The translations under genes were made by a program, and so were the position numbers. The notes under the pieces are model-generated. The model was not told the origin of the DNA, did not search any database, and was given only the letters and a program-made list of their open reading frames with translations. Shown one piece after another: positions 1,231-28,542 of a DNA stretch of 32,000 bases (its first letter is position 1; each line of letters begins with the position of its first letter). Source of the stretch: Candidatus Saccharimonadota bacterium (GTDB lineage Bacteria > Patescibacteriota > Gracilibacteria > BD1-5 > UBA2023); NCBI GenBank assembly GCA_963706795.1, contig OY970170.1:360001-392000 (forward strand). The letters are read 5' to 3'.

Positions 1231-1850
1231 TATTTTTTCCAGTCAGTGAGTATGGTGTGCATGGCGTATTCGCGATAATCTCACTCCGTCGTCGCGAGGA
1301 CCGCAGTAATTGCGAGCGCAGAAGGTACCACTCAGACACTATCTTTTACTTCCTCAATTTGAACAAAGGTGTAGTAGGGCGTGGATTTTGCACCGACGCA
1401 ATCGTGAGTATAACGTCCGAGTTCATCGATACAAAGTCTGATTTCGGAGCTTCCAAGTGGAGCGTTTGCCTCGGATGACACCTTTGTTTTCGCGTCAAAA
1501 GTACCGGTCGCGATCTTTTTAAGAGCGATGGGGCTTTGAGTTGTATAGCGGTTTTGGATGGTATAGTATCCAGGTGAAAGTTCGCAATTTGCAGCACTGC
1601 TACAGATCGACATTTCAGTGAGTCCTTTCAGGGAATTCCAATTGCGAAGCGCGAGGTAATTGGTATCGCGGATACTCTTTACGAGCTCCATCTGCTCGCG
1701 GATAAGATTGGCCGCAAGGATTTCTTGCTTGGAGCGAAGCGAGAGATTCATCGCGCTTCTCACGAGCGAGTAGGCTCACAAAAATCAGACAGTGAAGATG
1801 AGTATCGCCACCATGACTTCTATGATCGTAAATCCTTTGTGCGATCGCAT
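1230..1850 (-). CDS. PilV/GspI-like minor pilin
   Basis: MRSHKGFTIIEVMVAILIFTV-G-FL-G-AYSLV. Extends track ORF 1332..1763 on both sides through four in-frame TGA. TAA at comp(1230-1232) overlaps the next ATG. Confidence 0.7.
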
Positions 1851-1851
1851 A

Positions 1852-2376
1852 TTATTGAATGACGAAATTTTTAGCAAGCGACCCCGTAGCGACACCTTTG
1901 AGACCCACAATTCCACCACTTGCAGTGATCTGCGAAGTGGTATTTCGGATTTCGATCTTTCAGCTCGGAGCTCGGAAAATTACCATGATTTCTGGAGAGC
2001 TTGGAGTGGTATCAAGTGTCGAAATCTCGACCCGATCCTCGAGTCGTAATTGCTCAACCATGATAGTATTCGCACCGAGATTAAAATCAGAAGTTCCTCT
2101 TTGTAATGCTCTCATTTGGGTAGTTTTTTCGCCCTTTTTGAGATAGACGGCCATATCGGCGTTTTTGGAGGTGCCCGCAAAAGTATAACCCGTTGTAGAG
2201 AGGAGTTTTGCTTTATTTATGAGCTGTTCGATGCGCTCGGAGGACATGGCTACACGGGATTTATCCGCATAAAAGCTGTAGGGTGCATACGCAAGTGTCA
2301 TCAAAATCCCACCGATCGCGATAGCGACCATGAGTTCTATGAGTGTAAAAGCGTGACGAGACTTGCACCATTGCAT
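1852..2376 (-). CDS. FimT/GspH-like minor pilin
   Basis: MQWCKSRHAFTLIELMVAIAIGG gives a short prepilin leader if the ATG at 2376 is used; the track start at 2409 would give an implausibly long hydrophobic leader. Read through TGA at comp(1960-1962). TAA at comp(1852-1854). Confidence 0.65.
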
Positions 2377-2412
2377 GCCCACAGTGTAGGCAAAAACAAC
2401 GAAAATCAAAGC

Positions 2413-3501
2413 CTATCCAACCGTATCCGTAATCTTGAGAACAGCCGAAAATATCGCAAAAGCGAACCAGAGTACAAACATTCCTGCAATGAGGACCGCA
2501 CCTGGCTCAACAAACTTCACAAGCGTCGCAACCGAGGAGTCCACTTCCCTCGTATATTGCGCAGCGATCTTTGCACAGATTTTATTGATCGTAGAAGTAC
2601 GCTCACCCGCCCCAAGAAGTTGAATAAAATCCTGGGTAAATAGCGCATGATGCGGATCGATTTTTTCGAAACTGTCGGTGATCTTCATACCCGTTTCGAC
2701 GAGACGAGAGATTTCGGAGATGGCTTCTTCGTAGATGAGATTATTGGTGGATTCACCAGTGAGACGGAGCGTTTTTACGATCGGAATTCCTGCTCAGAGG
2801 AGGAGTCCAAGTGTCGTAGAAACTCGAACAATGAGATAATTACGATAGACCTTGCCGACCAGTGGCAATGAGAGAATAACTCGATCTATATGCTTGCGAC
2901 CCTGGTAGGTATTCGCATATGAAATCAACGCAACAATTACTCCGATCACTCCAAAGGCGAGAAGCAAAAAATGATTAGCGATGAAGTTACTCGTAACAAT
3001 GAGCGAAACCGTAACCGCTGGCAGATCTGTACCCGCATTTTCAAAGAGTGGAAGCAGTTTTGGTACGACAAAAACCATGATAATAGTCACGGCTGCCACC
3101 AAAAAGATGAGGATGATCATCGGATAGGTCATCGCTCCTTTAAGCTTTGCAGCAAGGTCTTCACGATCTCTGAGTTCGGTCGCGAGACTCATAAATGAGC
3201 GATGGATCGTTCCTGATTGTTCACCTGCTTCAATAATAGAAACTTCGCCTCGATCAAAGGTACGAGGAAGTTTCTTCATTGCATTACTCATGGAGTCACC
3301 GGACTCGACGAGCATGAGGAGATCGCTGGCATCGCGATAAAATTTTGGATTTTCGGTTTTAGCACAAAACGAGCGAAGTGCATCGATAAATGTCACTCCC
3401 CCATCTACGAGATTAGCGAGATGCTCATAAAAAAGCGCTTTTTCTTTGAGGGAAATACGATTCCAAAAATGTACGGTTACCTCTTGATTTTCTGATTTCA
3501 T
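2413..3501 (-). CDS. pilC: Type IV pilus assembly platform protein PilC (GspF family)
   Basis: Track ORFs 2794..3501 and 2413..2688 share a frame and are joined through TGA at comp(2794-2796). The model has the two-repeat GspF architecture, 362 aa, and ends in TAG. Confidence 0.9.
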
Positions 3502-3504
3502 GGT

Positions 3505-4056
3505 CTACTTGAGGTAATAGAGTCCGAGCTGCACACTTGCCGATACTGGGGCCGAAGCATCTGTATCCATTGGGAAAGTAAGTCCTTTTACAAGATAACG
3601 ACGCTTCCCATATACACCTGTGAGATCATCAATAAATGTATTAAGTCTCGCAACAGAATCCGCCTGAATAGAGAGTCCCACAGACGCGAGAGAAATACCA
3701 GACGGAAGTCGCTCACCTGGATTGAGAGACACTGAACCAATCGAAACTCCTGAACCAGAGACTGCAAAAATACTCTCAAGGATCTGGTCTTCGCGGTAAT
3801 TACCAGCATAACGAACTACATCTGCCTGCGCTGTATCAGAAGCCACAGATTGCTTGAGCGTATTAAGTGAATCAAGCGTTTTTCGGTAGCCTTCTACTTC
3901 ACGTGTTACATCCTCAAGATTAGAGGATTTTTCCATCGAAGAATAGTAGAGATCATAGGTGAAAAATCCACCAATGAAGAGACCAACGAGGACGAGAATA
4001 ACCGGAATGAGATTACCTTTTGAGCTCTGAAAGCGCTCGGAATTTTGTACGTTCAT
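3505..4056 (-). CDS. PilO-like pilus assembly protein (TM helix, coiled coil, C-terminal domain)
   Basis: Uninterrupted 183-aa ORF with an N-terminal TM segment (LIPVILVLVGLFIGGFF). Sits between the pilN-like gene and pilC. Ends in TAG. Confidence 0.55.
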   Translation of the reverse strand: MNVQNSERFQSSKGNLIPVILVLVGLFIGGFFTYDLYYSSMEKSSNLEDVTREVEGYRKTLDSLNTLKQSVASDTAQADVVRYAGNYREDQILESIFAVSGSGVSIGSVSLNPGERLPSGISLASVGLSIQADSVARLNTFIDDLTGVYGKRRYLVKGLTFPMDTDASAPVSASVQLGLYYLK

Positions 4057-4057
4057 G

Positions 4058-4615
4058 TTATTTTGTCTTAAATTCTACACCAAAACTGCGCTTTGATTCA
4101 TCACCATTTACACTCGTGATTGGCTCAAGTTGGAGGGAGCCTGAGTAAGTGTTATTTCTATAATCCCCTACGAGTTTAATCACTTTACGAATCGCATCAT
4201 CCGCGAGCCCCTTCTCAGCATTGACGGACGTATTGATATGACCACCCTGATATGCAAAGCCCGTAAATTGGATGAGGTAGTCACGATGAATCTTGTCGAT
4301 TTCACGAACATAATTTGAGACGATGGAAGACTCAATATTTTTAATGATCTCAGGTTTTGCCTGCGAAAGAATCTCAGCCGCCTGAACAACAGGATCCATT
4401 TTGAGAGCAACAATAGAAGTCTGGTATTCTGATCAGCGTTTCTTTTCTGCTGCAATGTCATTTTCGAGAGACATATTGCGATAGACAAAATACGCAGTGA
4501 AGAGCACGACGATTGCCAAAAACGCACCTGCACCCATCATGGCGTAGGAAGCGTGAGGTTTTTTTGGACTGAGCTCGTCAAGAGAGTCGTTGTTTTGGGT
4601 AGGATTCATAGGCAT
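4058..4615 (-). CDS. PilN-like bitopic membrane protein
   Basis: Track ORFs 4433..4657 and 4058..4399 are joined through TGA at comp(4433-4435). One TM segment (AMMGAGAFLAIVVLFTAYFVY). The start is uncertain: ATG at 4657, 4615 or 4609. Confidence 0.45.
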
Positions 4616-8225: not shown

Positions 8226-8243
8226 GCAAAATTGAATGTCTGA

Positions 8244-8271
8244 ATTGTAAGGGAAGCAGAGGGAAAGTAAA
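8244..8271 (-). promoter_or_regulatory. Putative sigma70-type promoter for hrcA-murA
   Basis: On the minus strand: TTTACT, 16-nt spacer, TACAAT, about 18 nt upstream of ATG 8225. Confidence 0.4.
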
Positions 8272-8306
8272 CGTGATTTTTGAAGCCATTTTTTGGACGA
8301 TTTTGA

Positions 8307-8334
8307 TTGACAAAACAAAGTTTTTGAATACAAA
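8307..8334 (+). promoter_or_regulatory. Putative promoter for the small gene at 8380
   Basis: TTGACA, 16-nt spacer, TACAAA. Confidence 0.45.
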
Positions 8335-8379
8335 GCTCACACACATTTTTTGTCTCATAGTGGGACTAAGGAGAAAGTT

Positions 8380-8742
8380 GTGAATAATGTATACAAATCG
8401 ATATCAAAAGTAGTTGCCTCGTTGTTCGGACGTATTGAACAATTGACGCGGACACAAGAAGCGGAAATTGCGGCTTACACCGTAAAAAATGTCAGTCTGT
8501 CTGCACTGCAAAAGCGGGTGAGCAAAACCCAGCACGACACAGCAAAGACGCTGATTATTCCGCATGGAACAACACATACCGTCATCACGACGTGTAGTGA
8601 AGTTCAAAATTATTTGAATGCACTTCCAGGCGCCACTCCAGAAACCGCGGATCTGCTGCCAAAAGCAAAAGCACAACTCACCAAACACAGACGCGACCAA
8701 TTGGTGACACTGGACTTCTCAAGTTCAGCATTCTGCTACTAA
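8380..8742 (+). CDS. Hypothetical small protein (120 aa)
   Basis: GTG start 6 nt after AAGGAG (8368-8373). No TGA. Ends in TAA, followed by a strong terminator. I recognise no motif. Confidence 0.55.
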   Translation: MNNVYKSISKVVASLFGRIEQLTRTQEAEIAAYTVKNVSLSALQKRVSKTQHDTAKTLIIPHGTTHTVITTCSEVQNYLNALPGATPETADLLPKAKAQLTKHRRDQLVTLDFSSSAFCY

Positions 8743-8785
8743 GCCAAGACGACGAAAAGGAATCTAAATGAATTTTCAGTCTTAC

Positions 8786-8820
8786 GGGATATTACACACT
8801 GTGTGATATCCCATTTTTTT
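8786..8820 (+). terminator. Rho-independent terminator
   Basis: GGGATATTACACA / TGTGTGATATCCC stem of about 13 bp, followed by ATTTTTTT. Confidence 0.8.
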
Positions 8821-8842
8821 GCCCTGCGAGGGAATCTGCAAA

Positions 8843-8870
8843 TTGACAAATGAGGCATTCAGAATACAAC
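8843..8870 (+). promoter_or_regulatory. Putative promoter for the small gene at 8909
   Basis: TTGACA, 16-nt spacer, TACAAC. Same architecture as the promoter at 8307-8334. Confidence 0.45.
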
Positions 8871-8908
8871 GGTAGCGCATTGTTCACTCTCTAGAAAGGA
8901 GGTCCGAT

Positions 8909-9226
8909 ATGCACGCACGTAAAATAAATCCTGCGCCACTCATTGAAATTCCACCGATTACTCGGGATCAAATGAGCATCCTATCAAAACGTGGTAAAAT
9001 CATAACCCGCAATGGGAGGCGATTTACCACAAATGGAAACATAGCTATACAGGCAATGTTTCTCGCTCAAAATGAGGATATCTACCCTTTATACGGTAAT
9101 GTTACAGCAAAAGAAATCCAAGATTTACAAGACGGAAATACACCTGTAACCATACGATTGCACACTGGGTATATCTATACAGATAGCTTGGGACTTGCGC
9201 AGCAAGCAGTCGGTCATCTCAATTGA
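8909..9226 (+). CDS. Hypothetical small protein (105 aa)
   Basis: ATG 6 nt after AGGAGG (8897-8902). No TGA codons internally, although its own terminating codon at 9224-9226 is TGA. A perfect 10-bp hairpin (CATCTCAATT / AATTGAGATG, 9216-9250) spans that codon, and a second terminator hairpin follows. Confidence 0.55.
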   Translation: MHARKINPAPLIEIPPITRDQMSILSKRGKIITRNGRRFTTNGNIAIQAMFLAQNEDIYPLYGNVTAKEIQDLQDGNTPVTIRLHTGYIYTDSLGLAQQAVGHLN

Positions 9227-9258
9227 ATTTTATCAATTTTAATTGAGATGACATATTC

Positions 9259-9295
9259 AAAAACCGTCACCCAGGGTGACGGTTTTATTTTTATC
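9259..9295. terminator. Bidirectional terminator between the 8909 gene and ftsK
   Basis: AAAAACCGTCAC..GTGACGGTTTTATTTTT, with an A-run on the left and a T-run on the right. Confidence 0.75.
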
Positions 9296-11477
9296 GATCG
9301 AGTACTTCGCGTGGTTTGCTTCCATCTGCAGGTCAGACGATTCCCATTTCTTCGAGGATGTCGATAACGCGGGCTGCGCGTGCATATCCGAGCTTCATTC
9401 GGCGCTGGAGCATGGAAGTCGACGCCTTGCCGGCTGTTCGCACAAATTGAATGGCTTCTTCGATGATTTTTGGATCTTCGTCATATCCGTCTGCGCCTCC
9501 GATCGATCATTCGAAGTTTCCACGATCCCCTTCTGTGATGGAGGTATCATAGATATCTTCGAGCATTGCAGGATCAATTGTACGTTTGATATGATTGACG
9601 ACGGCTTCTACTTCTTCGGTTTCTACGAGGATACCCTGAATGCGCTCAGGTGACATTGATCCAGATGGACTATAGAGCATATCTCCACGTCCGAGGAGGT
9701 CCTCTGCACCCATTCGATCGAGAATCGTTCGTGAGTCCACGAGACTCGCGACCGTGAAGGCGATGCGAGATGGGATATTTGCCTTAATGAGCCCCGTGAT
9801 GACATCAACCGATGGACGCTGTGTTGCTACGATGAGATGCATTCCGACAGCACGTGCCATCTGTGCAATACGAGCAATCGTGGTTTCGACTTCTTTTTTG
9901 TTTCCGCTCATCATGAGGTCTGCAAGCTCATCGATGACGATCACAATATTGGGCATTCGATCTTTTTTGCTAACCTTTGCATTGTATTCTGCAAGATTTC
10001 GAACCTTTGAAACATTGAGAATATCATAACGTCGAATCATCTCAGCAACGGACCACTTAAGCGAATTAAGTGCCTTGTCCGGCTCATTGATAACTGGTGT
10101 AAGGAGGTGTGGAATCCCATTATAGATACCAAGTTCGACACGTTTTGGATCGATGAGGATCATACGGAGATCACTCGGTGCGTTTTTGTAGAGAAGACTC
10201 ACTAGGAAGCCATTCATTCCAACTGACTTACCCGATCCAGTTTGTCCGGCAATGAGGAGATGGGGCATCTTTGCGAGGTCGCCAACGATGTAGTCTCCAT
10301 TAATATCCTTTCCGACTGCAATCGTGAGATTGGATTTTGCATTTACAAAATTGGGATGCTCGAGGACTTCACGAATACCGATGGTGTCGCGCTTGTCATT
10401 AGGCACCTCGATACCGACGAGACCAAGTCCTGGGATCGGCGCCTGAATACGGATCGATTTTGCTTTGAGCGCGAGTGTGAGGTCCTTTTTGAGATTTTCG
10501 ATTTTGGAGAGCTTAACTCCTTCGTTGGGTTCTAGTCGATATTGCACTACGGTTGGCCCGACCTTTTCACCCTTCATTTCTACACCGATTTTAAATTGGA
10601 GAAGTGTGCTCTCGATCTCGGCGGATTTCTCACGAATCTCTGCATCAGATACAACAGCGATATGCTTCACTTCATTGAGGAGTTTTGTAGATGGAAACTC
10701 CCATGTTCCAAAGTCTGGGATCGAGAGTTGTTTTTCGGGAGAAGCTTTGTGGTCGGATTTTTCTTCTTTTTTGGCACCAAAAATCGTGCCAAGCATGCCT
10801 TTTTCTTTTTTCTCGATCGCGACATGGATTGGTGCATCGGGTGCGTCGAGTTTTTTCTTTTCGATTTCGCGTTCTTTGCGGATGGATTCGAGCTCGAGTT
10901 CGAGGTCTTTTTTGCGCTTTTCGAATTCTCCTTCTTGTTTTTTAGATTTGAGGTCTTCTTTGACTTCTTTGCGAATAGTTGAGATCGTCTCTTTTACATC
11001 ACCAGCAGATGGAAGCTTTGACTGGACCGTCGCAAAAATCTTACGATAACTAATGCGCACAGTGAGATAAATCGAAACCAGATATCATCCGATCAGTGCC
11101 AAAATTGCCGGTGTTCGACCAAACCATGACGTTAAAAGTCCCGAAAAATCCAAAAGTGCATTGGCTCCATAGGGCCTAAATGCTGTCAGTACCGAAGTCA
11201 GCGAAATGAGATAAAGCAGAAGTCCGATAAATCGCACACTATTCCACGAAAGACGCCCAATGATAATGAGTCCACCAACAATACCGACGATCGGCACAAA
11301 AATCCAACGATAGAGATCACCCAAAAGATAACTCAGCGTACTCACGAGATAGCTTCCAACCAAAGAAGAGCTGTCTCCAAAGAACGCAAGTACGCTTAAA
11401 AAGAACAATACCCATCCAGCGATAACGTTCCCAAGCTCAAAATTCCAAGTAGGTCGTGACTTTTTCTTGCGTGCCAT
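9291..11477 (-). CDS. ftsK: DNA translocase FtsK
   Basis: An N-terminal membrane domain (track ORF 11085..11582 from MARKKKSRP), a K/E-rich linker, the motor domain (GQTGSGKS) and the gamma domain are joined through TGA at comp(11085-11087), comp(9507-9509) and comp(9333-9335). The gamma domain reads LEEMGIV-G-PADGSKPREVL. TAA at comp(9291-9293). 728 aa. Confidence 0.95.
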
Positions 11478-12295: not shown

Positions 12296-14848
12296 ATGTT
12301 CAACAATTTCGCAGAAGACTACAAAAAACTCATGATCGATACGGAAAACACCGTAAAATCAGCCAACTACCAAGAAATCCTCCCCGAAGACGTCTTCCTT
12401 GAGATGATGAAGGTCAAAACCGGACCCATTTTTGAGATGTTCGCAAGCTATGGAATCAACGAAAAGATCACTCATGACGTTTTTACAAAGCGTCCATTTT
12501 CCGAATTCCGTAAGTGAGCAAACGGCGCATATATCGGACTCTCTCCGCGCATCAAAGAGCTCATTGTTTCGAGTGTAAAAATCGCCGCAAGCTTTGAGAA
12601 AAGAAAGGCTGGGATAGAGGACTTCCTCCTGGCTCTGATGAGAACTCCTGGAGAAACTTGGATCTATCAATTCTTTGATTTTGTCGGCGTAAGCCCTAAG
12701 GATTTTGAGGAGCAGCTCGTCAATTATTCGCGTGAGATTGCCAAGGACAAAGACAATGGCATGTTCGCTCCACTCGATGGCATTTTGAGTGCACTTGAGC
12801 ATAACATGGTGCAGGCAGAAGACATGAATAATCCATTTTTTGCCAACAAAAAGCAAGACGGCAAAAAGCAAGAGAGCGCCACTCCCGCCCTCGACTTCTT
12901 TGGAAATGACCTCACAGCACAGGCAAAGCTCGGCAAGATCGATCCAATCATTGGGCGCAATACCGAAATCGATCGTCTCATTTCGATCCTCAATCGCAAA
13001 ACCAAAAATAATCCTTGTCTCGTAGGTGAGCCAGGAGTTGGAAAGACTGCCGTAGTCGAAGGACTCGCACGTCGCATCGTCGAAGGCGATGTGCCATTCG
13101 CTATGCAAAACAAGCGTGTAGTTGCGCTCGATCTCTCTGGACTCGTTGCTGGTACCAAATACCGCGGTGAATTCGAAGCCCGCATCAAGCAAATCATCGA
13201 CGAAGCAAGCAAACTCGAGAACGAAATCATTCTCTTCATCGACGAAATCCACACCATTATCGGTGCTGGATCAGGCGAAGGAACACTCGATGCAGCCAAT
13301 ATTCTCAAACCCGCAATGGGCCGAGGAAAAATCTGTGTTATCGGAGCAACAACGCTCACTGAATACCAAAAATATATTGAAAAGGACAGTGCGCTCGAGC
13401 GACGATTTCAAAAGATTGAAGTCGATGAGCCAGACCAAAAAACTGCCATCGAAATCATTAAGGGCCTCGCACCAAGCTTCGAAGAATTCCACAATCTCAT
13501 TATTGAGGATGACGCCGTTATTGACGCTGTAACGCTCGCGACTCGATATGTAACGGATCGATTTTTGCCAGACAAGGCAATCGACCTCATTGACGAAGCA
13601 TGTTCAGCCAAGAGCATGAAATACAACTTTGATGAGGAAGAAATCAAAAAGATCAAAGAAGAGATCGAGACTATCCAAAAAGACATGGAGAATTTTATTA
13701 TCTCCCAGCAATACCACAAGGCTATCAACGCTAAGCAGCGCCGCGAAGAACTCGAAAATAAAATCGCTGAAAAGAAAGCAAAACGCACCATTCCTCGCGA
13801 AAAGCGTCTGCATATTACTGGAGAAGACATCCAGAAGATTGTTCGCCAAATTACAGGAGTGCCCGAGCGTAACCTCGATACCGAGGACATCGCAAAGCTC
13901 TCAAAACTCGGAACTCAGATCAAAAAACGCATCATCGATCAAAACGAAGCCGTGGATTCGATCGTCAATGCCATCAAGCGATCTCGCACGGGTATTGCGG
14001 ACGTCAATCGTCCAATTGGATCATTCCTCTTTTTGGGACCAACCGGAGTCGGAAAAACTGAGCTTGTAAAGGTACTTGCAGAGGAATTTTACGGTGATCC
14101 TAAGGCGCTCATCAAGATTGATATGAGTGAATTTAATGAGCGATCAAGTGCCTCAAAGCTCATCGGTACTACAGCTGGATATGTTGGCTACGAAGAAGGT
14201 GGAATGCTCACCGAAAAAGTACGTCGCAAGCCCTACTCAGTCGTACTCTTCGATGAGATCGAAAAGGGAAATTTTGAAGTCTTCAATCTCCTTCTACAAA
14301 TTCTCGAGGACGGAGTTGTGACTGATGGAAAGGGACGAAAGGTGAATTTTAAGAACACCATCGTCATTATGACCTCAAATATCGGCGGAGACGAATTTAC
14401 CTCAAAGGCCGAACAAATCGGGTTTAATGTCAGCGAAAAAGACGAAGAAAAAATCATCCGAGATTACGAAAAAACCAAAGAAAAAATCGTCGGAAGCCTC
14501 GATGAATACTTCACACCAGAGTTTATAAACCGTATCGATAAGATCGTGGTATTCTCGCCGCTCGACAAAAATTCGATGGGCAAAATCATCCGTATTCAGC
14601 TCGAACGCCTGCAATCTCGTCTTACTTCGGTCAATATTGGTCTCGAATACGACACCAAAGTAGTCAATCTCATCCAAAAGGAAACATACGATCCATCCTA
14701 CGGTGCACGCCCTGTACGACGATATATTCAGGACAAAATTGAGGATCACATAGCCGAACTTTTGATCGCCAAGGAGAAACCTGCTACAATACGCATAACT
14801 GTTACCAAAGGTGTCCTCTCTTTCGATCCGATCATTTCTCGCGCTTAG
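12296..14848 (+). CDS. clpC: ATP-dependent Clp protease ATP-binding subunit, ClpC type
   Basis: A Clp_N domain starting at MFNNFAEDYKK is joined to track ORF 12638..14848 through TGA 12515-12517. Two AAA modules (GEPGVGKTAVVEGLA and GPTGVGKTELVKVLA), a short middle domain, and an IGF loop (AEQIGFNVS). 850 aa. Ends in TAG. Confidence 0.9.
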
Positions 14849-16391
14849 TGCCATAGTTGTCACAGGCCTTATCCCTCTTGCGGTTTCCGCTGAGGGATAT
14901 ATTGGCGAGGATCTCGGAGTAGATCTTTATAGAAGAGTCGACAGCGGAGTTGCTTCCATGCGAAAAACTCTGGTCGAAAAGCGCATCCCTGGATCGGCAA
15001 AACGAATGAATGAGACGATCAAAAGTCAGTGCGACAAAGTCAAAAACACTGATGTGATCGAGACGAGTAACGAATTTACCGCATCAGAGCTCTCGCAGAT
15101 TTCACAGGGAGTTTCGAGTCCTCTCTATTTGCATCTCAAGCCACAATTTAAAGCAACCGGCGTGGCCACTGATCTTTTGGAATGTATCCAAAATGTTGTT
15201 GGCAACGACTTTGCAAACATGCAATACGAGAGCGCAAAAGAGCAGCGTACGCTCGAAAAACTCGGATCTGTAGGACTCTACACAGATGGAAATACTGATA
15301 ATTCGAGCTTTGATCTCATGTATGATCTCTCTCGGATTCATGACATTCTCTTTTCAAAAGACATCCCCTACAACGGAAAATCCAATCCGACGAATGGCAA
15401 TCTCAAGGCATTTCTCAGTAATCCGACGCCATTTTCATCACTCACAAATGGACTAACGCTCTCGGATCGATTGTCATTTGATCTCGCAGATAGTGGTTGG
15501 CAACTCGTAAATCCCGACAAACCACAAACTACTTGAACAGGAGGAACCGTCGGTCCATACTGTGCAACTGGTACCACAACCATCGCTGGTATCGACGCCA
15601 ATCTCATCAGTGATCTCAATTCACAAACGGCAGTCGGGACAAATAGCTCGTCAGAATCAAATCCTGATATCTCACTCAGCGTATCATCCGTCAATGACGC
15701 TGGCGATAGCCTCGCCAATGCAGCTCTGACCGGCAATGCCTGAGGAAGCCGCTTTGGTTGCAAAACATTCTTTTGTATCAATGTGGACTTCGTCATGTAC
15801 CAGGACACGCTTTTGTGAGGCGGGAAGAGTTATGCAATCCAGAGCATCCTCGAGCAAAATCTCAAGATCGTCCTGCATTTTGCTGGCTCAAGTTTTGTAC
15901 AGGCAAAGCACACGAGTAATTTCTTTGAATTGCTGCTCAAAAACATCAAGCTGCCTAGTATGGGACATATTGGCACGGTGGTAACTTCGAGACCGCCTCC
16001 TATTCTCAATCTTGCAGGCAAGGATACTCCTCGGGGGGCTCCAAAGCAAAATGACGATGAGAAACTCTTCGATGAAATTACCACGAATGTTCTTGCAGAT
16101 TACGGACTTAATACCAAACGAGAGAACGCGCTTCTGGAGAATAAAACTCAAAACTACGGGATTACTCTCCTCAATGGACTCAGCACTGACTACGCGAACG
16201 AAAAACTCAAAATCCCAAGTAATGCTCGTGCAAATTACTACGCAGCGAAGGAACGAGCGATCAAGACTGGATACTACGACGCATTTTTAGGTGATGTGCT
16301 CGAATTCCAAGCATTCACCAAGACATTCTCAGACAATATCGGGAACTTCGTTGCTCTCGTAAATGGCCTCCATGATATCCCACAAAATTAA
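14811..16391 (+). CDS. Secreted protein of unknown function (526 aa)
   Basis: GTG start overlapping the clpC 3' end. Signal peptide SIRSFLALSAIVVTGLIPLAVSA/EG. Track ORFs 14811..15536 and 15930..16391 share a frame and are joined through TGA at 15534, 15741 and 15816. Ends in TAA. Confidence 0.6.
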
Positions 16392-17649
16392 ATTCGTCCT
16401 CGTTACACTCCTCTCGCTATCCACGCTGGTATCGAGTGTTTCGGCGTGTGTGATCGAAACTGGACCTTCACCTGCACTCAGCAACTATTTAAGCAAACTC
16501 GACAAAGCTCTCGCAGATATCAGCTCAGCAAGCTCAGGAGCATCCTGCAGCAATACTTCCGACGGGAAGGCACGAGCCAGCGACAGCCTTAGTCGGTCGA
16601 CTTCTGAAATCGTCAAAAATACCAATCGTGCACTCACTCAGGACGACTACATGTCTGCTGGGAGATTTTCGATTGATCTCGTGCTCAGAGGAGAAGTTCC
16701 AACCGCCCTCAGACGTGACTATAATCTCCTTCTTCGTAAACAGGAGGCTATAAATTCACTCATTGATAGCATCTATACTAATTGTTGAAGCGATCTCGAC
16801 GGCAATACATCGATCATCGACGATCCCGCATACACTACTGGAAAATCCGACCAGACCAATCTCTGAACACTTGCCGGCGATCTGCTTACCAATCATATCA
16901 AGATCATTGGATTTTATCGTGAAGCGACCATCGGCGTACCTCCAACAAAAGCGAACTTTTTAATGGTCGATGATGATTTTGAGTCGAGTCTGAGCGCAGA
17001 CTACGGACCAAAATGAACTGAGATCTGTAACAAAAAATGAGACCCCTTCAAACGAGTCACTGAAGCCATTGACCGCATTGGAGATCTTGGTGGCAGCATT
17101 GCCCGAGGAACCGATGATTGGAAGGCTGCATGGGCACTTCTTCAGTCAAATTCGACAGAATATTCTCAGGTGGAACGGGGAGTATTGGCACGCGAACTCT
17201 CACGTCAGTGACTCTCAGGGAAGAGCTCAAGCCTCATCCTTCGCAATCTTGCCTACTATAACAAAACAGATCAGCATCGTGGAATTAGTGGCTTTGTAGA
17301 AGACATCGGAGATCGCATCAATCAGGGATTCAGCGCCGTCAACGAAGCCTTCGGTGGATTACGCGAAGACCTTGGAAAGGCAAAAGATACCGATCAATAC
17401 CTCGATCGCTACCAAAATATTCAAGCCGTTCGCACCGATATTGGCAAAGAAATTACCGGAGACTTCTACGAGCTCATGGACCATATCGGCGATGAAAATC
17501 TCACAACTGACGAAATCACCGGTCACCTCGCAGATATCTATAACGAAATCGACGCCACCACCAAGCTCATCTCACCATACCGCAAGATCGCTCGTGATAC
17601 CTGTAATCAGCAAACTCAAAATTCATGAGGAAACTGTAGCGGTAAATAA
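16363..17649 (+). CDS. Putative lipoprotein of unknown function (about 428 aa)
   Basis: MASMISHKIKFVLVTLLSLSTLVSSVSA-C has a lipobox-like signal. Overlaps the previous gene by 29 nt. Track ORF 16363..16788 continues in the same frame through six TGA to TAA 17647-17649. Confidence 0.55.
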
Positions 17650-22449: not shown

Positions 22450-23889
22450 ATGCAACACACCTGATTCCCCGACGAAGCCGAGGATCATAATTTATGAGCC
22501 TCAAAACTCGAAACTCGTGAGAGTTCGGGAGTTTTAGTTGCGCCAAATGTAAGTAAGACAACTGAAATTATTGCACAAGTTACAAAATCATCAGAGGAAA
22601 TCATTGCTGAGAAGGATAGAAAGATTGCGAAACTAGAGAGTATTCTCCGAAGAGCCAATGCTCGTCAATGAAAAGAGGCAGTACAGAGTAAAATTACTGA
22701 TGCAGTAGACAAAATTCTTGATGACCTTTTTAAAATTAATGTCGATGAGTCAACAAAGCTCTTTGATTATCTGTTTGAAATCGTACCTGAGGCACTTAAT
22801 TGTGATCTGCATTACTATATTTTTAGACGAAATATTAATGACGTCTCGATAAATGAAATGAAGCTTGCGGATGTGTTTTCATTTATGATTGAAATTGCAT
22901 TCTCCTGAGTGAGCGAAGGTCCAATTTCTCAGCATGCGAGCTTTATAGAAGAAGGCACGACAACAGAACATCTTCATTGAAATTCAGAATTCTCAGAAAT
23001 GGAAATAGACTGAGTAGTCATTGGTTATGCAGGCATTAATAAATCCAAGGATCTCAAACGCTTCCCCGAAGAATTCCCAAAAGCTTTTGAAAAAATTTCT
23101 CGTTCTGTTCAGACTTTTTTGAGGCAAGTACATAGCTTACTCTTGCAGGATGAGTTAAAAATACAAGACAGTAATAAGATGCAGCTCATCGACGAGCTAA
23201 ATAAAGCCCTTGCTCAAAAGGCCGATTTAATAACTCAGCTCGATAAAGAAACGATCACCGATCACCTCACTCGGGTATATATTCGAAGCGGATTCTACGA
23301 AAAAGCACTTGAGTTCTTCTTGGAAAATCCATGACGTGAAGCGAGTATCTTTGCAATCGACATCGACCACTTTAAGCAAGTAAATGACAAGTACGGACAC
23401 TGAATGGGAGACAAGGTACTTGAACATACAGCAAAAATCCTCAACGAAATTGCAGCGGATATTCCATGAGCCATTTTTGCTCGGTATGGTGGTGAGGAAT
23501 TCGCGATGATCCTTCCTGATCACAATATCCCCTCAGCAAAGATCGTTGCTGATAGTATCTGTGCCTATTTTACCGAGCAAGTTGATCAATTCTCTGATCC
23601 AAAAACTCGCGAACAATTCACTATTCCAGTTACTGTAAGTATCGGCGTTGCTAATATTCAGACCGACAGAGTAAGCGGTAAAGCAAATGAACTCTTTGGA
23701 GGCAAGCCGGATTATACTCGAGACGAGCACAAGCAAATGCTTCGTATTTTTGGAGATGAACTCGACAAGGACTTATGAGATGCTGACAAGGCGATGTATG
23801 TCGCCAAAGAGGCTGGACGCGCACGTGCTACCACTTATGACGAAAGCATGCTGAATATCGATCCACATAAAAAAAATCTTCCGGCATAG
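22450..23889 (+). CDS. Diguanylate cyclase: N-terminal sensor/GAF-like region, coiled coil, GGDEF domain
   Basis: One frame is open from 22333 to TAG 23887-23889 if ten TGA are read as Gly. C-terminal domain reads FAIDIDHFKQVNDKYGH-G-MGDKVL...ARYGGEEFAMIL...VSIGVA...DADKAMYVAKEAGR. The start is uncertain (ATG at 22396, 22405 or 22450), and there is no in-frame ATG/GTG/TTG between 22450 and about 22857. Confidence 0.75.
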
Positions 23890-24154: not shown

Positions 24155-24490
24155 CTATTTGAAGATCGAAAACAATACCGCGTTCACTACCGAGAGCACC
24201 AAACTAAAGAGGAGCGCCCACCAGAAACCATTTACTTTAAATCCTGGAACGAGCTGCGAGACCAAGAGGATGATCAGCGCATTGATTACAAAGGTAAAGA
24301 GCCCGATAGTGACGACATTAATCGGCAGCGTCAATAGGAGAAGAACCGGCTTTAAAAAAGTATTCACAACCGCAAGTACGACTGCTACGAGCACTGCAGA
24401 ACCCGCTCATGCCACCGCAACTCATGGAAGTAAATATGATGTCAACCCTACTGCAAGTGCAGTGATACATATACTAATGATAAGATTCAT
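24155..24490 (-). CDS. Four-TM membrane protein, PF04020-like (phage holin 4_2 / YvlD family)
   Basis: MNLIISICITALAVGLTSYLLP-G-VAVA-G-AGSAVLVAVVLAVVNTFLKPVLLLLTLPINVVTIGLFTFVINALIILLVSQLVPGFKVNGFW. Extends track ORF 24155..24394 upstream through two TGA. Ends in TAG. Confidence 0.65.
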
Positions 24491-24617
24491 GTGCAAAAAG
24501 AAAGGGATACGAAATACCGATAAGTACATCAAAATCTCGTTCATCTGCTTCGGCAAGCAATAGTCACTCTATGTCGAATGGCTGAGATTACAATTTTTAA
24601 GCAATTTCGCGCTCAAT

Positions 24618-25440: not shown

Positions 25441-25525
25441 TGGTGCCCGAGGGGGGACTTGAACCCCCACACCTTTCGGCATACGCACCTCAAGCGTACG
25501 TGTCTACCAATTCCACCACCCGGGC
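25441..25525 (-). tRNA. tRNA-Leu (anticodon GAG), type II, CCA encoded
   Basis: Hand-folded cloverleaf: acceptor GCCCGGG/CTCGGGC, anticodon arm TACGC-TTGAGGT-GCGTA, long variable arm, T arm GGGGG-TTCAAGT-CCCCC, then ACCA. 85 nt. Confidence 0.9.
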
Positions 25526-25691: not shown

Positions 25692-25768
25692 TGGTGCACC
25701 CAGTAGGAGTCGAACCTACAACCAACGGCTTCGAAGACCGCTACTCTATCCAGTTGAGCTATAGGTGC
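25692..25768 (-). tRNA. tRNA-Arg (anticodon TCG), CCA encoded
   Basis: Acceptor GCACCTA/TGGGTGC, D arm GCTC..GAGT, anticodon arm GCGGT-CTTCGAA-GCCGT, T arm GTAGG-TTCGACT-CCTAC, then ACCA. 77 nt. Confidence 0.9.
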
Positions 25769-25914: not shown

Positions 25915-26877
25915 TTAACGCTTCTTGGTGATATCGTAGAGGAGCGGTGCCGCGATACAGATAGAAGAGTACGCTCCAATGAATGTACCAAATATGAGCG
26001 CGAGAGTGAATCCCTTGATCGCCTGTGGTCCAAAGAAGAACATTGCAACGAGTACAATTACAATCGTAAGTGATGTGAAAATCGAACGTGTAAGTGTATC
26101 GTTGATAGAATTATTGATGAGTTCACCAAATCCCTGCTTCTTCGCAATTGGAAGACGGAGATTTGAGCGGATTCGGTCCATTACGACGATAGTATCGTTG
26201 ATCGAGTATCCAAGTACTGTGAGGAGCGCAGTAATAAAGAATGTATCGATTTTATATTCTGGAAAGAAGTGCGAAGCAATAACGTAAAATCCGAATGTAA
26301 TAATTACGTCATGGAAGAGTGAAACCGCAGTAACCGCTCCGAATGAAAAACTCGTAAATCCTTCGATTGATCCTCGGAATGCCCAAGCGATGTAGAGGGA
26401 GATGAAGAGAATAACCATTGCGAGCGTGAGGTACGCAGTCTTTTTGATGTAGTCTCCGAATGATTCACCAACATTGATGTAGCGCGAGAGTGAAGCCTGT
26501 GAAGACTTACCAAGTGCTGTAGTAATAGCATCTCGAAACTGCGTCTTTGCAGCGTCGAATGCCTGGTCATTCATGCCTTCGAGGCGAGAGAATCCAGCTT
26601 CTACAACAAATTTGTTTTCACCAGTAATGCGATACACGAGAGTATTATTTACAACGTGCTTACCATTGACCATGACAGCATCTTTGGCCGCTTCTACTGT
26701 TTTGGTAGTAGTAGGAAGGTCGAGAGTGCCCTTGTAATCGAACTCAGCCTGGATACCACCAGTCATGTCGATACCGAGATTCATCGGGAATACAAACGGT
26801 GCAGCAGCAGAAATAACTACGAGCGCGAGCGCAATTGCGTAGTAAGAAAATCGGTTTTTTATAAAATTGAAGCTCAT
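25915..26877 (-). CDS. secF: Protein translocase subunit SecF
   Basis: MSFNFIKNRFSYYAIALALVV, GIDMTGGIQAEFDY, and the C-terminal six-TM region (YSINDTIVVMDRIR). 320 aa from ATG 26877. No TGA. Ends in TAA. Confidence 0.85.
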   Translation of the reverse strand: MSFNFIKNRFSYYAIALALVVISAAAPFVFPMNLGIDMTGGIQAEFDYKGTLDLPTTTKTVEAAKDAVMVNGKHVVNNTLVYRITGENKFVVEAGFSRLEGMNDQAFDAAKTQFRDAITTALGKSSQASLSRYINVGESFGDYIKKTAYLTLAMVILFISLYIAWAFRGSIEGFTSFSFGAVTAVSLFHDVIITFGFYVIASHFFPEYKIDTFFITALLTVLGYSINDTIVVMDRIRSNLRLPIAKKQGFGELINNSINDTLTRSIFTSLTIVIVLVAMFFFGPQAIKGFTLALIFGTFIGAYSSICIAAPLLYDITKKR

Positions 26878-26899
26878 AGCTATGGGAAAAGATGGCTCT

Positions 26900-26927
26900 T
26901 TTATAAGTCGGAAGCCTCGAAAGTCAA
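26900..26927 (-). promoter_or_regulatory. Putative secF promoter
   Basis: On the minus strand: TTGACT, 16-nt spacer, TATAAA. Confidence 0.45.
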
Positions 26928-26946
26928 CAGAAAAGGGTCTCAATTG

Positions 26947-26975
26947 TTGCCTACATGAGCCACTTGCGCTATACT
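26947..26975 (+). promoter_or_regulatory. Putative promoter giving a leaderless mRNA for the PrgI-like gene
   Basis: TTGCCT, 17-nt spacer, TATACT, then 6 nt (gaagcc) to ATG 26982. Confidence 0.45.
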
Positions 26976-26981
26976 GAAGCC

Positions 26982-27398
26982 ATGCAGTATAAGATTCCCG
27001 TACAAATCGAAAACGAAGACACGATTTTTCTCGGCTTGTCTATCAGACAACTAGGAATTATCATGATCGGTGGCGGTATTGCCTATTCGATATTTAAGTC
27101 TCTAGAATGAGGAATTGGCCCTCAAGCGGCTTCAATTCCAGCGATTATTATCATCATAATAGCGCTTTTTGTGGCACTTTTCCGTAATTCGGAAATGACA
27201 TTTTTGCCATTTATTCTCAATATGATTCGACTCAATCTCAATACAGGAACCCGCGTTTGGTCAAAATGAACTGAGAGTTTCTCAAATCTTGAGATCGGAT
27301 ACGTCGTTTCATTCGCGAATGCGACTAAAAAATACGAAACAAAGAATTCTATCCACGAAATCTGAGACGCACTCAACGATAATCTCTGAAAGCTCTAA
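26982..27398 (+). CDS. PrgI-like (VirB3-like) small membrane protein
   Basis: MQYKIPVQIENEDTIFLGLSIRQLGIIMIGGGIAYSIFKSLE-G-GIGPQAASIPAIIIIIIALFVALFRNSEMTFLPFILNMIRL. Two TM segments. Four in-frame TGA. Invisible in the standard-code track. TAA at 27396-27398. Confidence 0.55.
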
Positions 27399-27400
27399 AT

Positions 27401-28126
27401 ATGTCAGACAAGACTACTGCATCGGTAAAAACCGCAAAGAAGCCTCAAAAGGATTCGACTACACAAAAATACATGCCATTCTCGGAAATTCGAGACAATT
27501 GTATGATTATGAAGGATGGATCAACTCGTATGGTGCTACGAGTTCAGGCGCTCAATTTTAATCTCAAAAGCGAGGAAGAGCAGGATTCGATCATCTATGG
27601 GTATCAGCGGTTTTTGAATTCTCTACGCTTCCCTATCCAGATTATTGTTCGTTCACTCAAGGTGGATATTGAGAGCTATCTAATGAAGCTCAAAAATCTT
27701 GCGATCAAGCAGCAGAACCCCCTCCTTCAAGAGCAGACATATCGATATATCGATTTTCTAACAAATCTGATCGATATGGCTCAGATTATGAAAAAGGATT
27801 TTTATATCGTCGTTCCTTATGACGAAGATCTCGAACGTTCTGTACGAGATACTGGAATGTTTGGAATGTTCCGATCATTTTGGAGTGCTATTACTGCCGA
27901 AGAAACCGTTGGTTCTATCCGAGAAAAACGTCGCAATATCGACGTCATGCGCAAGGCAAATCTCGAACGTGTGAGCACTATTAAAACTACACTCGAAGGA
28001 ATTGGGATCAAGGGTGAAGAACTCAAAAAAGATGAGCTCATCAAGCTGCTTTACGACTACTACAATCCAAAGGTAAACGGAGAAAATAAGATCCGTGAAA
28101 AGATGGAAAATCTCAATGTAGAGTAA
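27401..28126 (+). CDS. Protein resembling only the N-terminal domain of Gram-positive VirB4/PrgJ-type conjugation ATPases (241 aa)
   Basis: Starts 2 nt after the PrgI-like stop. TQKYMPFSEIRDNCMIMKDGSTRMVLRVQALNFNLKSEEEQDSIIYGYQRFLNSLRFPIQIIVRSLKVDIESYL. No Walker A. Ends at TAA, followed by a terminator. Confidence 0.5.
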   Translation: MSDKTTASVKTAKKPQKDSTTQKYMPFSEIRDNCMIMKDGSTRMVLRVQALNFNLKSEEEQDSIIYGYQRFLNSLRFPIQIIVRSLKVDIESYLMKLKNLAIKQQNPLLQEQTYRYIDFLTNLIDMAQIMKKDFYIVVPYDEDLERSVRDTGMFGMFRSFWSAITAEETVGSIREKRRNIDVMRKANLERVSTIKTTLEGIGIKGEELKKDELIKLLYDYYNPKVNGENKIREKMENLNVE

Positions 28127-28150
28127 TTCACCGAAAAATACACGAAATAT

Positions 28151-28188
28151 AAAAAACCTCAGTATATCCCAATATGCTGAGGTTTTTT
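28151..28188 (+). terminator. Rho-independent terminator
   Basis: AAAAAACCTCAGTATA..TATGCTGAGGTTTTTT. Confidence 0.75.
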
Positions 28189-28542
28189 ATGTCCACACGA
28201 GACATCTGAGCGAGCGGTGAAGATATTGCGGAAGCATATCTTTTACGCAATGACTACACTATCCAAACAAATAACTGGACCGTTCCTGGTGGAGAATTAG
28301 ATATCGTCGCCGAAAAAAATGGCATCGTTATTTTTGTGGAAGTAAAATTTCGTACGAGCACACGACTTGGGCATTCGAGAGAGAGCCTTGGAACTCTCAA
28401 AAAGAGATATTTCCGCAGAAGTGGCATGCTCTATGCAACAAAACATGGACTTCGCGAAGAACAGATCAGATTCGACTTTATTGCGATACAAAAAAACTCG
28501 AGTGGATACCATCTCGAGCATTTTTGTAATATTGAAGTGTAG
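28189..28542 (+). CDS. yraN: YraN-family (UPF0102) endonuclease-like protein
   Basis: MSTRDI-G-ASGEDIAEAYLLRNDYTIQTNNWTVPGGELDIVAEKNGIVIFVEVKFRTS...RFDFIAIQ. One TGA at 28207-28209. Extends track ORF 28336..28542. Ends in TAG. Confidence 0.75.

What the first reader, a model, noticed from the sequence alone, without database searches (positions are those of the whole stretch)
26947..28188. Orphan two-gene module: a PrgI/VirB3-like membrane protein plus a protein matching only the N-terminal domain of VirB4-type conjugation ATPases
Two genes 2 nt apart sit between a well-formed promoter and a strong terminator. The first (138 aa, four UGA-Gly, two TM helices) begins MQYKIPVQIENEDTIFLGLSIRQLGII, the pattern I associate with the PrgI family of Gram-positive type IV secretion systems. 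The second (241 aa) carries the ...MPFSEIRDNCMIMKDGS..LRVQALNFNLKSEEEQDSIIYGYQRFLNSLRFPIQIIV... pattern typical of the N-terminal region of PrgJ/TrsE/VirB4-like ATPases. It stops at TAA before any Walker A motif. No coupling protein, relaxase, VirB6 or hydrolase gene is nearby. This is either a decayed conjugative or T4SS remnant, or a stand-alone membrane module that reuses the VirB3/VirB4-N interface without the motor. I have not seen the second option described.
Basis: partly seen in the sequence, partly recalled or inferred. Interest (0 to 1): 0.65.

Follow-up and report, generated by a model that had tools for sequence, protein, structure and literature searches.

The report
PrgI–TrsD pair of patescibacterial T4SS

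Summary
In a UGA=Gly recoded Gracilibacteria-type genome, a 138-aa two-TM PrgI-family gene (26982-27398) lies 2 nt before a 241-aa gene (27401-28126) that has no Walker A. A weak promoter match precedes the pair and a strong terminator follows it.

The pair is neither a decayed remnant nor a motor-less novelty.
- The 241-aa protein belongs to a large family of short stand-alone proteins (2296 representatives; TrsD / Pfam "TraC-like"). It is under strong purifying selection (median dN/dS 0.07). Its predicted fold matches the N-terminal domain of VirB4 (TrwK).
- In other Patescibacteria and in Firmicute plasmids the gene order is PrgI – TrsD-like – complete VirB4.
- In Gracilibacteria-type genomes the secF | prgI-trsD arrangement is fixed (74-80 of 81 loci). 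An intact virB4 lies 6-37 kb away on the same contigs, behind a SpoIIE phosphatase gene and often a coupling-protein gene.
- Quiñonero-Coronel et al. 2025 (PMC12102498) already report TrsD and PrgI as core patescibacterial T4SS parts that are unlinked from virB4 specifically in Gracilibacteria.

I could not show the virB4 of this particular genome. It is not within -27 to +11 kb of the pair.

Low interest; already known.

The parts
26947..26975 (+). Promoter-like site, TTGCCT-17 nt-TATACT. The -10 hexamer ends 6 nt before the ATG of gene A, so the mRNA would be leaderless or nearly so.
   Evidence: 9/12 match; such matches are about twice the shuffled expectation in this region, so this is weak on its own. 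It lies in the 104-nt divergent intergenic region between secF (25915-26877, minus strand) and gene A.
26982..27398 (+). prgI / virB3-like gene. 138 aa, two transmembrane segments, four UGA (Gly) codons.
   Evidence: Pfam PF12666 PrgI, E = 3.1e-12, 47.3 bits against a cut-off of 27. Hydrophobic segments at about 15-38 and 48-66. Present directly upstream of the trsD-like gene in 79-80 of 81 related loci. Median dN/dS 0.25.
27401..28126 (+). trsD-like gene (Pfam 'TraC-like' PF26593). 241 aa, soluble, a paralogue of the VirB4 N-terminal domain with no P-loop.
   Evidence: NCBIfam NF045975 VirB4 N-terminal part, E = 4.2e-12, and NF041427 TrsD/TraD, E = 3e-5. Precomputed PF26593 hit. AlphaFold2 model with pLDDT 82.5, whose 14 best PDB matches are all TrwK/VirB4 of R388, probability 0.75-1.00 (0.91 or more for 13 of them), best E = 1.8e-3. 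No TM segment and no Walker A. Median dN/dS 0.067.
28147..28192 (+). Intrinsic terminator: A-tract, 11-bp core hairpin (extended to 21 pairs by A-U pairing), then a U-run. It closes the two-gene unit.
   Evidence: Fold dG -25.3 kcal/mol, z = -10.35 against shuffles. A comparable hairpin followed by a T-run is found after the gene in the closest relatives (L002-L005, L010, L011), but by a strict criterion in only 17 of 81 loci.

Best explanation
The two genes encode two inner-membrane-platform subunits of the chromosomal, MPF-FATA-like type IV secretion system that is typical of Patescibacteria.

- Gene A is the VirB3-type membrane hairpin (PrgI).
- Gene B is a TrsD-family protein: a free-standing paralogue of the VirB4 N-terminal domain, which is the VirB3-contacting part of VirB4 in the R388 structure.

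Inferred mechanism: PrgI inserts in the membrane and recruits TrsD. Together they form part of the cytoplasmic-face platform on which a complete VirB4 ATPase docks. That VirB4 is encoded elsewhere in the genome; in relatives it sits in a T4CP–SpoIIE phosphatase–VirB4 cluster. The system as a whole is thought to serve the epibiotic lifestyle rather than conjugation.

In Gracilibacteria-type genomes the ancestral prgI–trsD–virB4 operon has been split. prgI–trsD is an independently transcribed bicistronic unit fixed next to secF.

Shown here: the family and fold assignments, conservation, purifying selection, synteny, adjacency to virB4 in other lineages, and presence of virB4 on the same contigs in relatives.

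Inferred: the physical PrgI–TrsD–VirB4 interaction, the presence of virB4 in this particular genome, and the biological role.
For: Identity of the two proteins
- Gene A matches Pfam PrgI above the curated cut-off.
- Gene B matches the N-terminal part of a VirB4 model and, weakly, TrsD.
- Gene B's model (pLDDT 82.5) hits only TrwK/VirB4 chains in the top 14 PDB matches, including chains solved in complex with TrwM/VirB3 (the weaker first model gave the same answer).

Conservation of the short form
- 1394 homologues, the top 120 all 198-246 aa.
- 2296 representatives, the top 150 almost all 210-450 aa.
- Median dN/dS 0.067.

Canonical linkage elsewhere
- TrbL/VirB6 – x – PrgI – TraC-like – VirB4 – peptidases in L087/L088.
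- PrgI followed by a TrsD–VirB4 fusion of 898 aa that still contains VirB4's own N-terminal domain and Walker A.
- Every non-Gracilibacteria VirB4 locus from the metagenome scan that has upstream sequence carries TrsD 0.7-1.3 kb upstream, usually with PrgI before it.
- Firmicute plasmids have small ORF – TrsD-like ORF – VirB4 – peptidoglycan hydrolase (then TrbL in pOM18).

Gracilibacteria
- secF | prgI–trsD is present in 74-80 of 81 loci.
- virB4 lies within 10 kb of the pair in only 3 loci.
- It is on the same contig at 5.9, 6.9, about 10, 21.7, 22.6 and 36.7 kb.
- VirB4 homologues of 640-690 aa are abundant in this clade.

Literature
- PMC12102498 found TrsD to be the most abundant T4SS component in Patescibacteria (2272 homologues, 2209 of them in genomes with a patescibacterial VirB4).
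- TrsD is usually next to virB4, 'with the notable exception of ... Gracilibacteria'. Only 4.7% of Gracilibacteria VirB3 homologues are near virB4.
- A genome whose TrsD is 78% identical to this one (CG2_30_37_12) is listed there as VirB4-positive.
- According to PMC12102498, which cites Wang et al. 2023 (PMC10633639), PrgI, TrsD and VirB6 homologues are essential for epibiotic growth in Southlakia epibionticum. Wang et al.'s own text, as read here, reports the T4SS gene cluster SEML1_0006-0019 as essential.
Against: - The virB4 of this very genome was not seen. The window, plus an identical Logan contig (L001) that reaches 6 kb beyond its right end, covers -27.4 to +10.7 kb around the pair and has no VirB4, T4CP or SpoIIE. 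No VirB4 hit carried the 1,267,896-bp contig length of the source.
- Profile-profile comparison of the TrsD family with patescibacterial VirB4 is not significant. Homology to the VirB4 N-terminal domain therefore rests on one NCBIfam model, the fold match (best E only 1.8e-3, TM-score 0.44-0.48 on the query) and the literature.
- The score against the NCBIfam TrsD/TraD model is far below its cut-off (23.9 against 200 bits).
- No function has been shown experimentally for any TrsD protein (PMC12102498).
- The PrgI–TrsD contact was not modelled.
Confidence: 0.85

Rival explanations
1. Autonomous motor-less module. In Gracilibacteria the PrgI–TrsD pair has been freed from the T4SS and works without VirB4, for example with the Sec translocon whose secF gene it always neighbours.
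For: The pair has its own promoter-like site and terminator. It is separated from virB4 in nearly all Gracilibacteria loci. The divergent secF | prgI arrangement is conserved in 74 of 81 loci. No virB4 is seen within -27 to +11 kb here.
Against: VirB4 is present on the same contigs in every related case where both could be traced. 2209 of 2272 TrsD homologues occur in VirB4-positive genomes (PMC12102498). The pair is orthologous, with the same order and the same very short gap, to the pair that precedes virB4 in other lineages. Conserved neighbourhood with secF needs no functional link.
Confidence: 0.08
2. Decayed remnant of a conjugative element or T4SS: a VirB4 gene truncated before its ATPase domain.
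For: The protein resembles only the N-terminal part of VirB4 and ends before any Walker A. There are no other T4SS genes in the window.
Against: The length is invariant (237-248 aa) across about 80 species-level genomes. Median dN/dS is 0.067. The gene has no frameshifts or internal stops. The context is housekeeping, with no integrase or relaxase. The same short ORF is a separate gene in front of an intact VirB4 in other lineages, and that VirB4 keeps its own N-terminal domain.
Confidence: 0.02

Closest known systems
Patescibacteria chromosomal T4SS: VirB6 – PrgI/VirB3 – TrsD – VirB4 – VirB2-like pilins (Quiñonero-Coronel et al. 2025, PMC12102498; Wang et al. 2023, PMC10633639)
   Same: The same two protein families in the same order, with the same very short gap (2 nt in both the window and L087). 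Chromosomal, with no relaxase. The Gracilibacteria-specific separation from virB4 is reported in that paper.
   Different: Nothing essential. Added here: the fixed position next to secF, the 6-37 kb distances to virB4, and the SpoIIE phosphatase and T4CP genes in front of Gracilibacteria virB4. The paper's text does not mention these.
TrsC–TrsD–TrsE of staphylococcal conjugative plasmids pGO1/pSK41 (MPF-FATA, pGO1 subclass), and the analogous small ORF – TrsD-like ORF – VirB4 triplets on Bacillales plasmids
   Same: A VirB3-like small membrane protein is followed by a stand-alone protein of about 200-270 aa that is remotely related to the VirB4 N-terminus, and then by VirB4 (PMC12102498; Peribacillus pOM18 and a Pontibacillus plasmid).
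   Different: Those are plasmid-borne conjugation operons with VirB4 immediately downstream. Here the pair is chromosomal and VirB4 is not adjacent. The match to the NCBIfam TrsD/TraD model is far below its cut-off.
TrwM/VirB3 – TrwK/VirB4 N-terminal domain in the R388 T4SS inner-membrane complex (PDB 7O41, 8RTB, 8RTD)
   Same: The predicted fold of gene B superposes on TrwK over about 200 columns (probability up to 1.00). Gene A is of the VirB3 type, with two TM segments. FEMS review PMC12857230 describes a 1:1 VirB3:VirB4 stoichiometry.
   Different: In R388 the domain is covalently part of the ATPase. Here it is a separate polypeptide, and the patescibacterial VirB4 keeps an N-terminal domain of its own. 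Sequence identity is 11-16%.

Membership tests
PrgI family / VirB3-type T4SS subunit (gene A) | Match to Pfam PF12666 above the gathering score | tested here: met
   E = 3.1e-12, 47.3 bits against a cut-off of 27, covering profile positions 1-90 of 91.
PrgI family / VirB3-type T4SS subunit (gene A) | Small protein (about 10-15 kDa) with two transmembrane helices | tested here: met
   138 aa. Kyte-Doolittle analysis gives hydrophobic segments at about 15-38 and 48-66. No dedicated TM predictor was available.
PrgI family / VirB3-type T4SS subunit (gene A) | Gene located next to virB4 | tested here: not met
   No virB4 in the window. The gene is next to trsD, which is the normal neighbour in Patescibacteria. 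Only 4.7% of Gracilibacteria VirB3 homologues are near virB4 (PMC12102498).
TrsD / 'TraC-like' (PF26593) stand-alone VirB4-N-terminal paralogue (gene B) | Match to a curated family model | tested here: inconclusive
   The precomputed PF26593 hit is listed for this protein and all its homologues, but the local Pfam copy returned nothing. NCBIfam TrsD/TraD NF041427 gives only 23.9 bits against a cut-off of 200. The CONJScan FATA_trsD profile used in PMC12102498 was not available.
TrsD / 'TraC-like' (PF26593) stand-alone VirB4-N-terminal paralogue (gene B) | Short separate ORF placed between the virB3-like gene and virB4 in T4SS loci | tested here: met
   For homologues: L087/L088, about 35 metagenome loci and Firmicute plasmids. 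In the window it follows prgI with a 2-nt gap, but virB4 is not adjacent.
TrsD / 'TraC-like' (PF26593) stand-alone VirB4-N-terminal paralogue (gene B) | Fold of the VirB4 N-terminal domain | tested here: met
   The 14 best Foldseek PDB matches of the pLDDT-82.5 model are all TrwK/VirB4: probability 0.75-1.00 (0.91 or more for 13 of them), E = 1.8e-3 to 7e-2, TMq up to 0.48. Profile-profile sequence comparison with patescibacterial VirB4 is not significant.
VirB4 / TraC / TrsE conjugation ATPase (gene B) | P-loop ATPase domain with Walker A and B motifs (PF19044 / PF12846 / DUF87) | tested here: not met
   No Walker A motif and no ATPase-domain hit. Genuine Gracilibacteria VirB4 proteins are 640-690 aa and have the motif FAKSG(G)GKS. 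Gene B is not a VirB4.
Patescibacteria T4SS (the system as a whole) | VirB4 ATPase encoded in the same genome | not testable with these tools
   Only 32 kb of the 1.27-Mb contig is available, plus 6 kb from L001. In relatives VirB4 is on the same contig at 6-37 kb. CG2_30_37_12, whose TrsD is 78% identical, is listed as VirB4-positive.

The most novel reading that the evidence does not exclude
In Gracilibacteria the T4SS platform and its motor have become separately regulated modules. prgI–trsD is an autonomous, near-leaderless bicistron fixed beside secF. virB4 has been captured behind a membrane PP2C (SpoIIE-type) phosphatase and a coupling protein. TrsD, a free copy of the VirB3-binding domain of VirB4, would then be the constitutive partner of PrgI that pre-forms the docking site. 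Docking or activity of the ATPase would be controlled by phosphorylation. This would give TrsD, which has no assigned function anywhere, a defined role as an assembly or regulatory subunit.
Probability: 0.12. Interest if true: 0.5.

Novelty: already known. Interest (0 to 1): 0.18.

Why it matters
As a discovery it matters little. The pair is a routine instance of two catalogued components of the patescibacterial T4SS, and their separation from virB4 in Gracilibacteria is already published.

It is useful as an annotation lesson. In UGA-recoded, gene-dispersed CPR genomes, a 'VirB4 N-terminal fragment' is normally the intact TrsD-family gene and not a pseudogene.

The remaining open question is general and not specific to this locus: what TrsD does. 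It is very widespread, strongly constrained and reported as essential in Southlakia, yet it has no assigned function. The SpoIIE phosphatase–virB4 linkage seen in Gracilibacteria could be a lead on how the system is regulated.

Tried and rejected
- Local Pfam scan of gene B: no hit at E <= 10, although precomputed tables list PF26593. I relied instead on NCBIfam, the fold match and genomic context.
- Sequence search of the TrsD profile against PDB, with both a shallow and a deep alignment: nothing meaningful.
- hhalign of the TrsD family against Gracilibacteria VirB4 and against a broader patescibacterial VirB4 alignment: probability below 1%. The alignment falls on the correct VirB4 region (residues 75-230) but has no statistical support.
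- First structure model from a shallow alignment: pLDDT 67. Its VirB4 matches were only suggestive. It was superseded by the 117-sequence model.
- Attempts to find the virB4 of the source genome all failed:
  - looking for the 1,267,896-bp contig length among VirB4 hits;
  - a metagenome scan with the VirB4 alignment;
  - two look-ups of Logan-only VirB4 proteins, hoping for sample ERR12037365.
- A PrgI+TrsD complex prediction was considered and dropped. The structure tool returns no coordinates or PAE, so an interface could not have been judged.
- The idea that the FtsK gene at 9291-11477 is the coupling protein was rejected. It has FtsK alpha, motor and gamma domains and no tblastn similarity to the Gracilibacteria T4CP.
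- A mobile-element context was rejected. The neighbours are secF, yraN, yebC, tlyA, galU, murE, def, dnaB, clpB-like and ftsK.
Full report
**What is in the sequence**

The window comes from a UGA-recoded genome with 44% GC. Reading TGA as sense roughly doubles the length of open reading frames. Homologues are labelled Candidatus Gracilibacteria or Peribacteria.

I called genes with a codon-usage score under table 25.
- Gene A runs from ATG 26982 to TAA 27398: 138 aa with four in-frame TGA codons.
- Gene B runs from ATG 27401 to TAA 28126: 241 aa with no TGA. The gap between them is 2 nt.
- Homologues of gene A are mostly 137-140 aa. This supports the 26982 start rather than the upstream ATG at 26955.

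UGA = Gly is supported in two places. One TGA column of gene A is TGA in 40 homologues and GGN in 39. A Walker A position of Gracilibacteria VirB4 is TGA in 21 loci and GGN in 23.

A promoter-like site, TTGCCT-17-TATACT, lies at 26947-26975. It is a weak match, and such matches are only about twice the shuffled expectation in this region. Its -10 hexamer ends 6 nt before the ATG.

A strong terminator hairpin with a U-run lies at 28147-28192, with dG -25.3 kcal/mol and z = -10.4.

**What the proteins are**

Gene A matches Pfam PrgI (PF12666) above the curated cut-off: E = 3.1e-12, 47.3 bits against 27. It has two hydrophobic segments, as expected for a VirB3-type subunit.

Gene B has no TM segment and no Walker A.
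- The local Pfam copy finds nothing, but the precomputed tables give PF26593 'TraC-like'.
- NCBIfam matches positions 91-237 of an 894-position VirB4 model (E = 4.2e-12). It also matches the TrsD/TraD conjugative-transfer family weakly: E = 3e-5, far below that model's cut-off.
- An AlphaFold2 model built on a 117-sequence alignment reaches pLDDT 82.5 and pTM 0.71.
- The 14 best PDB matches of that model are all TrwK/VirB4 chains of the R388 T4SS. Probability is 0.75-1.00 (0.91 or more for 13 of them), best E = 1.8e-3, about 200 aligned columns, TM-score on the query up to 0.48. Some of these chains were solved together with TrwM/VirB3.
- A weaker first model gave the same ranking.
- Sequence-level searches against PDB and profile-profile comparison with patescibacterial VirB4 are not significant.

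The relationship to the VirB4 N-terminal domain is therefore remote. It is supported mainly by the fold, by one NCBIfam model and by the literature.

**It is not a decayed fragment**

- A search of 5.8 billion proteins gives 1394 homologues. The best 120 are 62-93% identical and all 198-246 aa.
- At 50% clustering there are 2296 representatives. The best 150 are almost all 210-450 aa.
- In 80 species-level Gracilibacteria genomes the gene is 237-248 aa in nearly all.
- Nei-Gojobori dN/dS over pairs with unsaturated dS has a median of 0.067 for gene B (106 pairs) and 0.25 for gene A (87 pairs).
- The neighbours are housekeeping genes: secF, yraN, yebC, tlyA, galU, murE, def, dnaB, a clpB-like gene and ftsK, plus type IV pilus genes. 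There is no integrase or relaxase.

**It is not motor-less**

The one long representative, P0183 (898 aa), is a fusion. It has a TrsD-like domain, a low-complexity linker, and a complete VirB4 with its own N-terminal domain and Walker A. It is encoded directly after a PrgI gene. TrsD is therefore an extra paralogue of the VirB4 N-terminal domain, not a split-off piece of VirB4.

A more distant homologue, P0140, lies in the order TrbL/VirB6 – x – PrgI – TraC-like – VirB4 – peptidases. Its PrgI-to-TrsD gap is the same 2 nt.

I took the VirB4 of locus L019 (660 aa) as a probe. It finds more than 7900 relatives. The best 120 are 70-81% identical, 574-693 aa (mostly 640-690), and many are named as Gracilibacteria proteins.

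A metagenome scan with a VirB4 alignment, followed by tblastn, gives a clean split.
- VirB4 loci at 46-52% identity (other Patescibacteria): every one with upstream sequence has TrsD 0.7-1.3 kb upstream, and most have PrgI before it.
- Gracilibacteria-type VirB4 loci (63-81% identity, about 45 loci): none has PrgI or TrsD within 10 kb. These have a SpoIIE/PP2C phosphatase gene directly upstream, and often a coupling-protein gene (DUF8128 + T4SS-DNA_transf) before that.

Conversely, the secF(-) | prgI(+) trsD(+) arrangement is present in 74-80 of 81 Gracilibacteria loci, and virB4 is within 10 kb of the pair in only three.

Where both genes could be traced to one contig they are:

| Locus or contig | Distance trsD to virB4 |
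|---|---|
| L079 | 5.9 kb |
| L019 | 6.9 kb |
| L059 | about 10 kb |
| JAYUDN010000003.1 | 21.7 kb |
| CAVXMT010000008.1 | 22.6 kb |
| CAKZJF010000061.1 | 36.7 kb |

Firmicute plasmids show the same triplet: small ORF – TrsD-like ORF – VirB4, followed by a peptidoglycan hydrolase (and TrbL in pOM18).

**The gap in the evidence**

I could not see the virB4 of the source genome. The window, plus an identical Logan contig (L001) that extends 6 kb past its right end, covers -27.4 to +10.7 kb around the pair. It holds no VirB4, T4CP or SpoIIE.

No VirB4 hit could be tied to the 1,267,896-bp source contig. The presence of virB4 elsewhere in this genome is an inference from relatives and from published co-occurrence.

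**Comparison with what is known**

Quiñonero-Coronel et al. 2025 (PMC12102498) surveyed 3035 Patescibacteria genomes. Their findings match this locus closely.
- 2209 of these are in genomes with a patescibacterial VirB4.
- Only 4.7% of Gracilibacteria VirB3/PrgI homologues are near virB4.
- Their supplementary table shows the order VirB6 – VirB3(PrgI) – TrsD – VirB4 – VirB2 in one genome.
- It lists Gracilibacteria bacterium CG2_30_37_12, whose TrsD is 78% identical to gene B, as VirB4-positive.

According to the same paper, citing Wang et al. 2023 (PMC10633639), the PrgI, TrsD and VirB6 homologues of Southlakia epibionticum are essential for epibiotic growth. [quoted passage not shown] Wang et al.'s text, as read here, reports the T4SS gene cluster as essential without naming these subunits. 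See also review PMC12857230.

The finding is therefore an instance of something already described. The paper's text does not mention the secF neighbourhood or the SpoIIE phosphatase in front of Gracilibacteria virB4. These are minor additions.

**Mechanism and verdict**

The most likely picture (confidence 0.85) is as follows. PrgI, a VirB3-type hairpin, anchors TrsD at the membrane. TrsD is a free copy of the VirB3-binding N-terminal domain of VirB4. Together they form part of the platform for a complete VirB4 motor encoded elsewhere. The system serves the epibiotic lifestyle rather than conjugation.

The family and fold assignments, conservation, selection and genomic linkage are shown. The physical contacts and the role are inferred.

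Rivals:
- A genuinely VirB4-independent module: 0.08.
- A decayed remnant: 0.02.

Novelty: already known. Interest: low.

Noticed in passing
L082 5072-11044; L084 4352-10595; L169 5678-8930; L170 8677-11989; many of L089-L148: In Gracilibacteria-type genomes virB4 is directly preceded by a SpoIIE/PP2C phosphatase gene of about 400 aa. Often a 930-994 aa coupling protein (DUF8128 + T4SS-DNA_transf) lies before that. The text of the 2025 survey paper does not mention this linkage. It hints at phospho-regulation of the T4SS.
   Followed up: partly
window 25915-26981 and the equivalent region of L002-L079: secF (minus strand) and prgI (plus strand) form a divergent pair, with an intergenic region of 104 nt in the window. 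This is conserved in 74 of 81 related loci. No secD lies next to secF in the window.
   Followed up: partly
VirB4 Walker A codon in L019, L079 and L082-L148; alignment A2: The middle position of the Walker A motif SG?GKS is TGA in 21 and GGN in 23 Gracilibacteria-type loci. Many public protein entries translate it as Trp (SGWGKS in the A2 consensus), because genetic code 4 was used instead of code 25.
   Followed up: yes
window 26970-26984: The -10-like hexamer TATACT ends 6 nt before the prgI ATG, and there is no room for a Shine-Dalgarno sequence. The transcript would be leaderless or nearly so. A TAnnnT hexamer ends 3-12 nt before the ATG in 47 of 77 related loci (a loose criterion).
   Followed up: partly
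window 1-4609 (minus strand): A type IV pilus gene block. It contains three proteins with the N-terminal methylation motif and a fourth similar ORF cut by the window edge, a PilC/T2SS-F protein (2413-3501), and two 183-aa single-TM ORFs without Pfam hits at the positions of PilN/PilO.
   Followed up: partly
window 14811-16391 and 16450-17649 (plus strand): Two adjacent large proteins, 526 and 399 aa. The first has a signal-peptide-like N-terminus. Neither has any Pfam match. They lie between a clpB-like gene and dnaB.
   Followed up: no
L085 8001-10697 (P0183): A natural fusion of a TrsD-like domain, a Pro/Ala-rich linker and a complete VirB4 (898 aa), found in an unidentified lineage directly after a PrgI gene.
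   Followed up: partly
window 8226-9290: About 1 kb between hrcA and ftsK with no confidently coding frame and no Rfam family at gathering score.
   Followed up: no
window 22450-23889 and 24155-24544: A GGDEF diguanylate-cyclase-domain protein (479 aa) and a 'phage holin 4_2' family membrane protein lie in the housekeeping region upstream of the pair. tRNA-Leu(GAG) is at 25441-25525 and tRNA-Arg(TCG) at 25692-25768, both on the minus strand.
   Followed up: no
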